Translations under genes and position numbers: made by a program | Assembly: GCF_009914755.1 (NCBI RefSeq) | Contig: NC_060926.1 | Strand: one strand, 5' to 3' | Source of the DNA: the human T2T-CHM13v2.0 reference genome, Homo sapiens | DNA: 64,000 bases | In this document: positions 29,286 through 29,873 of the stretch, piece after piece | Position numbering within the stretch: position 1 is the stretch's first letter | Layout: each line of letters starts with the position of its first letter | Notes under the pieces: model-generated | The model's input: the letters and a program-made list of their open reading frames with translations, nothing else | Databases searched by the model: none | Told to the model about the DNA's origin: nothing

Positions 29286-29873
29286 TTGTTTGTTTTCCAG
29301 TCACCTTTCCCAGCCTCCTCGCCCCTCCCCCCAGTTATTATATTTTACTTTTCCCCTTCCCACCCCTGCCCTTTGCATCCAACAGGGGGCGGCAGCGGCG
29401 GTGAGGAAGACACGAGTCCCAGGGAGTCCTAGGAGCGCGCAGTGGGTGGGGCTGGACAGCGAGTTCCACTTCCATGCCGCCTGCGTGGGCCTCGCGCCTA
29501 CAGATGGCCAACCTGCTGTACCACAGCCAGCACCACATCAAGATTTGGTTCCAGAACCGGCGCATGAAGTACAAGTAGGATTATGGGCCAAGGAGATGGC
29601 CTCGTTGTGGGGGGCCCCTCTCCCTGGCAGAGCAAGCCGTCCACGCCGACTTCAGAAACGCCCTGCAGTCCATGACCCCCGCCCTCCTTCCGCAAAGCCC
29701 ACCAGAATGCCTACTCGCTGCCCTCCAACTACCAGCCACCTCTCCAAGGCTGCGGTGCCCCGCAGAAGCAGCCACCCCCAACCCTGGCGCCCAATTATAA
29801 GCCCCAGGTCCTCCAAGCCAACTGAGACGCCTACAGGACGCCCACCATGTAGGGCAGCCCTGTGTACCTGGGC
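29286..29873 (+). pseudogene. HOXB3 (pseudogene): HOXB3-derived pseudogene fragment: putative intron 3' end, Gly linker, homeodomain and part of the C-terminus (strand given is the coding sense)
   Basis: Across frameshifts it reads [25 protein letters not shown] (29434-29472), [24 protein letters not shown] (29504-29578), AKEMAS and DFRNALQSMTP. It then reads KAHQNAYSLPSNYQPPLQGCGAPQKQPPPTLAPNYKPQVLQAN*DAYRTPTM*GSPVYLG (29694-29873). Recalled HOXB3 reads [38 protein letters not shown] and KAHQNAYALPSNYQPPLKGCGAPQKYPPTPAPEYEPHVLQANGGAYGTPTMQGSPVYVG. Stops at 29430, 29576, 29823 and 29850. Confidence 0.93.

What the first reader, a model, noticed from the sequence alone, without database searches (positions are those of the whole stretch)
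29386..29873. Orphan HOXB3 pseudogene fragment outside any Hox cluster context
Seen in sequence: hand translation gives homeodomain helix 3 ([13 protein letters not shown]) and a 60-codon C-terminal block nearly identical to HOXB3 as I recall it, with four stops and several frameshifts. The N-terminal arm (KRARTAYT) is deleted. No other Hox gene occurs in the 64 kb and the surroundings are repeat-dense. Established: Hox clusters are repeat-poor, and dispersed copies of clustered HOX genes are uncommon compared with those of NANOG, POU5F1 or DUX. The ORF track hides this because helix 3 is out of frame. It may already be annotated as an unnamed pseudogene; I cannot check.
Basis: partly seen in the sequence, partly recalled or inferred. 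Interest (0 to 1): 0.75.

Follow-up and report, generated by a model that had tools for sequence, protein, structure and literature searches.

The report
Fossil copy of antisense Hox RNA
This broken piece of the developmental gene HOXB3 sits alone on human chromosome 2 and was likely pasted there tens of millions of years ago from the RNA read off the gene's opposite strand, so it would be a fossil record of that antisense RNA rather than a working gene.

Summary
In detail: window 29332-29873 is a decayed copy of HOXB3 (358 bits, against 117 and 111 for the chr7 and chr2 paralogs), with four stops and many indels. It is not an ordinary HOXB3 mRNA pseudogene. It lacks the 3' UTR, has no poly(A) on the sense strand, and carries 57 nt of HOXB3 intron. 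That end stops 12 nt past an antisense AATAAA, about 7-21 nt from the annotated 3' end of the antisense lncRNA HOXB-AS1. The copy interrupts an LTR-like repeat, between decayed ~17-bp target duplications, and the TTTT/AA site has the polarity expected for an antisense template. Best reading (0.77): a 5'-truncated L1 retrocopy of an antisense RNA ending at the HOXB-AS1 poly(A) site, about 0.17 substitutions per site old, probably non-functional. Weak points: the tail is heavily decayed, no splice junction was captured, and the 797-nt isoform is probably not the template. A 248-codon off-frame ORF is also open in an 87%-identical unnamed ortholog, but its changes look neutral. The 2007 and 2011 homeobox surveys do not list the locus; GENCODE could not be checked.

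The parts
28471..28475 (+). Left 5-bp target duplication of the host repeat (4 of 5 match with 29903-29907)
   Evidence: Read from the sequence; weak on its own
28476..29288 (-). Host LTR-like repeat, left part (MLT1/MaLR-like; family name and strand recalled, not from a call), itself interrupted by an Alu at about 28513-28816 with an 11-bp duplication (28502/28817)
   Evidence: 6 other genomic copies found and aligned pairwise at p-distance 0.24-0.29; L022 aligns from 28476 (7 of 200 controls score as high)
29272..29288 (+). Left copy of the target-site duplication (decayed)
   Evidence: The first base of the right flank maps to 29271-29272 in 7 of 9 independent repeat copies; 10 of 17 identity to 29875-29891 in that register, binomial p about 0.003; not significant in a free local alignment (1722 of 5000 random pairs score as high)
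29289..29331 (-). Purine-rich tract on the minus strand; candidate decayed poly(A) tail (inferred)
   Evidence: 39 of 47 pyrimidines on + over 29285-29331, but 23 C against 16 T; no other genomic match for 29280-29345
29332..29382 (-). Copy of the last 57 nt of the HOXB3 intron = 3' end of the antisense RNA; the parent has AATAAA at C17:49414801-806, degraded in the copy
29383..29873 (+). Decayed copy of the first 614 nt of the last HOXB3 coding exon (C17:49414761-49414148): shortened poly-Gly, deleted N-terminal arm, frameshifted homeobox, C-terminal block
29537..29575 (+). Homeodomain helix 3 remnant, followed by TAG
29875..29902 (-). Right target duplication (29875-29891), L1-endonuclease-type site TTTT/AA (nick 29891/29892), and end of the host repeat
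   Evidence: The right-flank alignment begins at 29875-29876 in 7 of 9 copies; this is the only endonuclease-like hexamer at either junction on either strand; the 16-mer 29885-29900 occurs 16 times in the genome against 3 for the control
29254..30000 (+). 248-codon ATG ORF, mostly out of the HOXB3 frame, starting in the repeat; function unsupported

Best explanation
This is a decayed 0.54-kb copy of the HOXB3 intron end and last coding exon sitting inside an LTR-like repeat on chromosome 2, likely made when LINE-1 enzymes reverse-transcribed an antisense RNA ending at the HOXB-AS1 poly(A) site, and likely without function today. SHOWN: the parent is HOXB3; the copy includes 57 nt of intron and no 3' UTR; it ends 12 nt past an antisense AATAAA; both flanks belong to one repeat family and overlap by about 17 bp; TTTT/AA lies on the + strand at the right duplication. 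INFERRED: L1 endonuclease nicked the + strand at TTTT/AA; the T-rich end primed on the poly(A) of the antisense RNA; reverse transcription ran 3' to 5' through the intron part and 614 nt of exon and stopped (5' truncation); the tail then decayed into a purine-rich tract. The cDNA of an antisense RNA reads as HOXB3 sense on +, which is why it looks like a HOXB3 pseudogene. The age is about 0.17 substitutions per site, roughly 60-100 million years at a recalled rate of about 2.2e-9 per year. The event needs the RNA in germline or early embryo cells (established for heritable retrocopies). The template was probably an unspliced or long-last-exon isoform, not the 797-nt form.
For: (1) No 3' UTR: a search with 6.4 kb of the parent region found only the exon segment on chr2 at 75.6 Mb (40 of 238 candidates scored), and no A-run follows 29873; a sense-mRNA retrocopy starts from the poly(A) end. 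(2) The left end, C17:49414818, lies 12 nt past the antisense AATAAA; 42 of 845 intron positions (5%) and 47 of 2981 wider positions (1.6%) lie 10-30 nt past such a hexamer. (3) HOXB-AS1 is listed as chr17:48543551-48551250 (PMC11787445, one table row). The offset to T2T is 863,589 at MIR10A (PMC4531514 row; hairpin located, ends partly recalled) and about 863,575-863,589 at the HOXB3 3' end (PMC9184229 row; hexamer). That puts the annotated end at about 49414825-839, 7-21 nt beyond the copy's end. (4) One interrupted repeat: in 5 of 15 other loci carrying the right-flank 16-mer, the upstream DNA matches the left flank more than 10 points above the best of 100 shuffles; duplication register and endonuclease polarity as. 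(5) Neutral decay: dN 0.18, dS 0.25, 4 stops, 14 indels. (6) Mouse Hoxb3os is antisense, partially overlaps Hoxb3 and is called the ortholog of HOXB-AS1 (PMC10786614 section 6); a pig counterpart is reported (PMC7350310 passages). The RNA is therefore old enough.
Against: No splice junction is captured, so RNA origin is not proven. The 'tail' is G-rich on the minus strand, and its A-rich part lies about 30 nt from the homology end. The duplication is only 10 of 17, is not significant without the external register, and a register shifted by 2 also gives 10 of 17; 2 of 9 copies mapped elsewhere. The AATAAA is degraded in the copy. HOXB-AS1 is listed at 797 nt (PMC8293171 table) with upstream exons (primer mapping), which leaves little room for a 671-nt last-exon piece, and an acceptor-like site at 49414613 inside the copied stretch was not used. 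The tables do not name their assembly in the passages seen (GRCh38 inferred), and a gene span gives only the 3'-most isoform end.
Confidence: 0.77

Rival explanations
1. DNA-level capture: a 0.67-kb piece of HOXB3 genomic DNA was copied into a double-strand break in the repeat, with 43 nt of filler sequence.
For: The copy is collinear with genomic DNA across the intron-exon border; there is no splice junction; the tail is not clearly poly(A).
Against: It needs a 2-5% coincidence of one end with the antisense poly(A) signal, and it does not predict a ~17-bp duplication ending in TTTT/AA.
Confidence: 0.13
2. Retrocopy of a sense, intron-retaining HOXB3 RNA, primed internally in the exon and 5'-truncated in the intron.
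For: The intron end and exon are contiguous, as in pre-mRNA.
Against: There is no A-run at the right end; the parent is G-rich at the break point; no endonuclease-type site lies on the minus strand at either junction; the 3' UTR is absent.
Confidence: 0.05
3. Whatever its origin, the locus now works: the 248-codon ORF (29254-30000) is a de novo gene, or its RNA regulates HOXB3/HOXB-AS1 in trans. This does not exclude the best explanation.
For: 0 of 600 simulated decays of the parent and 0 of 1000 shuffles gave an ORF of 248 codons or more. The unnamed P0122 keeps the frame, with the same length and no indel, at 87% identity; 10 of its 32 differences keep the parent's residue and 9 have it in human, as expected for an ortholog. 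Simulated survival of an open frame is 0.0003-0.016 over the full distance and 0.01-0.12 over one branch. CpG loss is mild: 17 of 40 kept, which fits a 3-5-fold rather than an 8-12-fold rate.
Against: The substitutions are no more conservative than neutral (mean BLOSUM -1.03 against -0.71 simulated; 88% of simulations score higher). There is no Pfam, Atlas or distant hit. No RefSeq transcript covers it (hub table). The ORF was picked after the fact, and protein databases show only lineages where a frame is open. The nulls are simplistic.
Confidence: 0.06
4. Relic of a lost ancient Hox cluster or paralog.
For: It contains Hox3-type sequence with an intron piece.
Against: It is three times closer in score to HOXB3 than HOXA3/HOXD3 are to it, shares HOXB3's intron, has K about 0.17, and lies inside a repeat.
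Confidence: 0.005

Closest known systems
L1-mediated processed pseudogenes (5'-truncated retrocopies), e.g. the NANOG, VENTX, MSX2P1 and POU5F1 pseudogenes in the human homeobox catalogue (PMC2211742)
   Same: Dispersed, truncated and decayed; duplication and endonuclease-type site at the flanks.
   Different: The template appears to be the antisense RNA, so intron sequence is present, the 3' UTR is absent and no lost intron can be shown. That catalogue lists 0 HOXL-subclass pseudogenes.
HOXB-AS1 / mouse Hoxb3os antisense lncRNA
   Same: The copied stretch lies inside the HOXB-AS1 span and ends about 7-21 nt from its annotated 3' end; the orientation fits.
Hox pseudogenes left in place after genome duplication (e.g. 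medaka hoxa2b pseudogene, search listing and abstract of PMC5831782)
   Same: Decayed Hox coding sequence.
   Different: Those stay in their cluster; this one is dispersed, mammal-age and nested in a repeat.

Membership tests
L1 retrocopy (processed pseudogene) | Target-site duplication of 7-20 bp | tested here: met
   About 17 bp; register fixed by 7 of 9 independent repeat copies; 10 of 17 identity, p about 0.003; decayed, and not significant by free alignment
L1 retrocopy (processed pseudogene) | Endonuclease site TTTT/AA with polarity matching the RNA strand | tested here: met
   A single site at 29888-29893 on +, none on minus; implies an antisense template
L1 retrocopy (processed pseudogene) | Poly(A) tail at the 3' end | tested here: inconclusive
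   A purine-rich 43-47-nt tract on minus, G-rich
L1 retrocopy (processed pseudogene) | 3' end at the parent's polyadenylation site | tested here: met
   12 nt past the antisense AATAAA; 7-21 nt from the mapped HOXB-AS1 end
L1 retrocopy (processed pseudogene) | Introns of the template RNA removed | tested here: inconclusive
   No junction captured; the deletions are not bounded like antisense introns as read from the alignment; an acceptor-like site at 49414613 was not used
Processed pseudogene of HOXB3 mRNA | No HOXB3 intron sequence; 3' UTR and sense poly(A) present | tested here: not met
   57 nt of intron present, UTR absent, no A-run
HOXB3-derived (against HOXA3/HOXD3) | Best reciprocal match, shared intron and B3-type residue | tested here: met
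   the copy has a serine codon where HOXB3 has LSERQ and HOXA3 has LTERQ
Retrocopy of an annotated HOXB-AS1 isoform | Copied stretch lies within one annotated exon | not testable with these tools
   Only the gene span and the 797-nt length were found in print
Functional homeobox gene | Intact 60-aa homeodomain in an open frame | tested here: not met
   Arm deleted, frameshifts, stop after helix 3
MLT1/MaLR solo LTR (host repeat) | Match to a named repeat library entry | not testable with these tools
   No repeat library was available; dispersed copies are shown; the name is recalled

The most novel reading that the evidence does not exclude
This is the only dispersed HOXB3-region copy found in the human genome, a retroposed fossil of the antisense RNA rather than of the mRNA, and it has since given rise to a 248-codon de novo reading frame, started in an LTR, that is kept open in primates and expressed.
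Probability: 0.06. Interest if true: 0.8.

Novelty: new variant of a known kind. Interest (0 to 1): 0.5.

Why it matters
The two human homeobox surveys I read list no HOXL-subclass pseudogene (0 in the 2007 table; the 2011 file has HOXB3 only as the gene). This locus is an exception, and it likely arose through the antisense lncRNA. If so, it is a dated record that a Hox antisense RNA with today's 3' end was polyadenylated and present in germline or early embryo cells about 60-100 million years ago. That bears on how old and how fixed Hox antisense transcripts are, independently of present-day RNA data. It also shows that protein-based pseudogene pipelines can assign the wrong parent and strand where sense and antisense genes overlap. 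That can be tested genome-wide: look for 'pseudogenes' that carry a short intron end next to an antisense AATAAA. The locus itself is probably inert.

Tried and rejected
A local alignment extended the HOXB3 match left to 29144; I rejected this because that DNA belongs to the repeat. I looked for upstream HOXB-AS1 exons in the right flank: no match between window 27001-33000 and 50 kb of chr17 beyond the exon, intron, paralog and repeat hits. The deletions as antisense introns: not supported by their ends or sizes. A degenerate pattern for the repeat end found nothing, and a shorter left-flank query gave no new copies. Right-flank continuation in the first 6 repeat copies was mostly not significant (best L019, 14 of 300 controls as high), which is why the motif-anchored set was used; 10 of its 15 loci did not pass the +10 threshold, and searches used 9 of the 15 (the 5 that passed plus 4 borderline). 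Germline hypomethylation of the copy: inconclusive. Shorter relatives of the ORF: none among 76 candidates; a full HMMER search gave only P0121 and P0123; P0123 is a near-identical record with a frameshift. Dating by a D/E site (goat, bat, tenrec and jerboa D; human, gibbon and hamster E; the copy's codon is one step from D): one site with mixed rodents, suggestive only. Rfam found nothing at the locus. The sigma-70 scan is irrelevant to a human locus. Papers that gave no exon coordinates: PMC10845296, PMC8268976 and PMC11456241 (passages); PMC12273044, PMC5120258 and PMC6591245 (supplement searches); PMC6005429 is not held. The coordinate numbers used as search terms were recalled; only those then seen in a paper are used.

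Full report
Observation. The three + frames of 29200-30000 show helix 3 in one frame and the HOXB3 C-terminal block in another. A genome search with 29250-29900 gave 10 matches: the locus itself, C17:49414148-49414622 (358 bits, 77%), a second C17 piece at 49414735-807, and weaker homeobox matches led by C7 (117 bits) and C2 176.66 Mb (111 bits). The C17 exon translates to a protein 99% identical to human Hox-B3. A global alignment gives 542 aligned columns, 14 internal indels, four stops in the HOXB3 frame, non-CpG K2P 0.175 (bootstrap 0.13-0.22), dN 0.18 and dS 0.25. Mammalian HOXB3 proteins are 96-99% identical in the best hits, so dN is almost all decay of the copy (inference). The reciprocal searches show this as the only dispersed copy of the region among the candidates scored (these counts are lower bounds).

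The copy includes intron. The match starts at 29332 = C17:49414818, 57 nt inside the 845-nt GT-AG intron. This part alone scores 53.5, above all 1000 shuffles (maximum 42), above the best other site in 50 kb of chr17 (33) and above the paralog loci (28, 28.5). The match stops at 29873 in mid-exon, about 230 nt before the stop codon; the 3' UTR is absent and no A-run follows. A retrocopy of spliced HOXB3 mRNA is thus excluded as the simple reading.

The left end is an antisense poly(A) site. On the opposite strand the parent has AATAAA at 49414801-806, and the match ends 12 nt later. Only 5% of intron positions, and about 2% of wider positions, lie 10-30 nt past such a hexamer. HOXB-AS1 is listed as chr17:48543551-48551250 (PMC11787445, one table row seen). 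I converted this with two anchors: MIR10A at 48579838-48579947 (PMC4531514, table row; located by Rfam and sequence, ends partly recalled), offset 863,589; and the HOXB3 3' end at 48548870 (PMC9184229, table row) against its hexamer at 49412466-471, offset about 863,575-863,589. The annotated end then falls at about 49414825-839. The assembly of these tables is inferred to be GRCh38. A published HOXB-AS1 primer maps to the + strand at 49411960-976 (PMC9380905 passage), which confirms the strand. Mouse Hoxb3os is antisense and partially overlaps Hoxb3 (PMC10786614 passages and section 6). The row also shows HOXB-AS3 starting at 48549630, within the HOXB3 3' UTR, so more than one antisense RNA crosses this exon.

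Insertion site. The left flank matches 6 other genomic loci. The 16-mer from the right flank occurs 16 times (control 3), and in 5 of the 15 other loci the upstream DNA matches the window's left flank more than 10 points above the best of 100 shuffles. In pairwise alignments with 9 of those 15 loci, the right flank starts at 29875-29876 in 7, and that same repeat position maps to 29271-29272 on the left in 7. Both flanks therefore carry the same ~17 bases: 10 of 17 are identical (p about 0.003 in the fixed register; not significant by free alignment; a 2-base shift ties). The right copy ends in TTTTT/AA, the only endonuclease-type hexamer at either junction. By the established target-primed mechanism, a nick there gives, on +, duplication - T tract - cDNA - duplication, with the cDNA complementary to the RNA. 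The cDNA here reads as HOXB3 sense, so the RNA was antisense. Between the left duplication and the intron piece lies a pyrimidine tract (39 of 47; C-rich) with no match elsewhere; it is compatible with, but does not prove, a decayed tail. The host repeat spans about 28476-29902 with a 4-of-5 flanking duplication and a later Alu. I recall it as MLT1-like, inserted in a MIR-like element; no call names these. Its pairwise distance to other copies (0.24-0.32) implies a per-copy age similar to the insert's, which fits insertion into a then-young repeat.

Limits. No splice junction is captured. The 797-nt HOXB-AS1 form (PMC8293171, table passage) has upstream exons, and an acceptor-like site at 49414613 is crossed without loss. 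The template was probably an unspliced or long-exon isoform sharing the poly(A) site; acceptor-like sites exist at 49413838 and 49413920. DNA capture remains possible (0.13).

The ORF. A 248-codon ATG frame runs 29254-30000. It is longer than any of 600 simulated decays (maximum 217) or 1000 shuffles. The protein database holds it as P0121 (11 members) and as an unnamed 87%-identical, indel-free relative, P0122, whose differences split 10 to 9 between parent-like states in each lineage, with 13 unassigned; it is likely an ortholog. Survival of an open frame over one such branch was 0.01-0.12 in simulation. The substitutions are not conservative, and Pfam, the Atlas and a full HMMER search give no family. 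I treat it as likely chance plus ascertainment, with a 6% chance of function. CpG retention (17 of 40) fits a 3-5-fold decay rate and is inconclusive about methylation.

Known or new. PMC2211742 (passages and section 5) lists 0 HOXL pseudogenes among 65. PMC3141429 (passages and supplement search) lists HOXB3 once and has no 2p12 entry in the 4 files held. Searches for HOXB3P1, 'HOXB3 pseudogene', 'homeobox B3 pseudogene', 'HOXB3 retrocopy', 'Hox retrocopy' and 'HOXB-AS1 pseudogene' returned 0 papers; (listings only) showed no paper on this locus. The hub's RefSeq table has no row here. GENCODE, HGNC, subscription journals and unseen supplements could hold an entry. Whether retrocopies of antisense lncRNAs have been described as a class was not settled; from my own knowledge, L1 copies non-coding RNAs readily, so the mechanism is known. 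Verdict: a real feature, a new variant of a known kind, interest 0.5.

Noticed in passing
window 7543-7894: A very young-looking Alu on the minus strand with a pure 40-base T run, a perfect duplication of about 15 bp and high CpG content (o/e 0.97); it may be polymorphic. It shows the same duplication - T tract - element - duplication layout proposed for the HOXB3 copy.
   Followed up: partly
window 28502-28827: An Alu inserted into the same host repeat, with an 11-bp perfect duplication and an (AAACC)n-type tail.
   Followed up: partly
window 42503-43130: A 24-bp-unit C-rich tandem array (about 26 copies, with higher-order 95- and 119-bp periods) inside the span of LOC124906026.
   Followed up: no
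window 60748-61325: A tandem duplication of a ~299-bp Alu-like unit, 1.9 copies, 78% match.
   Followed up: no
window 59237-59452: A U3 snoRNA copy (Rfam RF00012, 92.9 bits) next to a long (TA)n tract; already annotated.
   Followed up: no
L011:6838-6920 (C17:49413838, 49413920): Strong acceptor-like sites on the antisense strand right at the HOXB3 stop codon and in the first part of its 3' UTR; they could define a long last exon of an antisense RNA.
   Followed up: partly
P0010: An unnamed protein record that joins a different Hox N-terminus and homeodomain start to the HOXB3 C-terminus at helix 3; probably an assembly chimera.
   Followed up: no
window 29338-29565: A 75-codon minus-strand ATG ORF through the antisense of the homeobox; not tested.
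   Followed up: no
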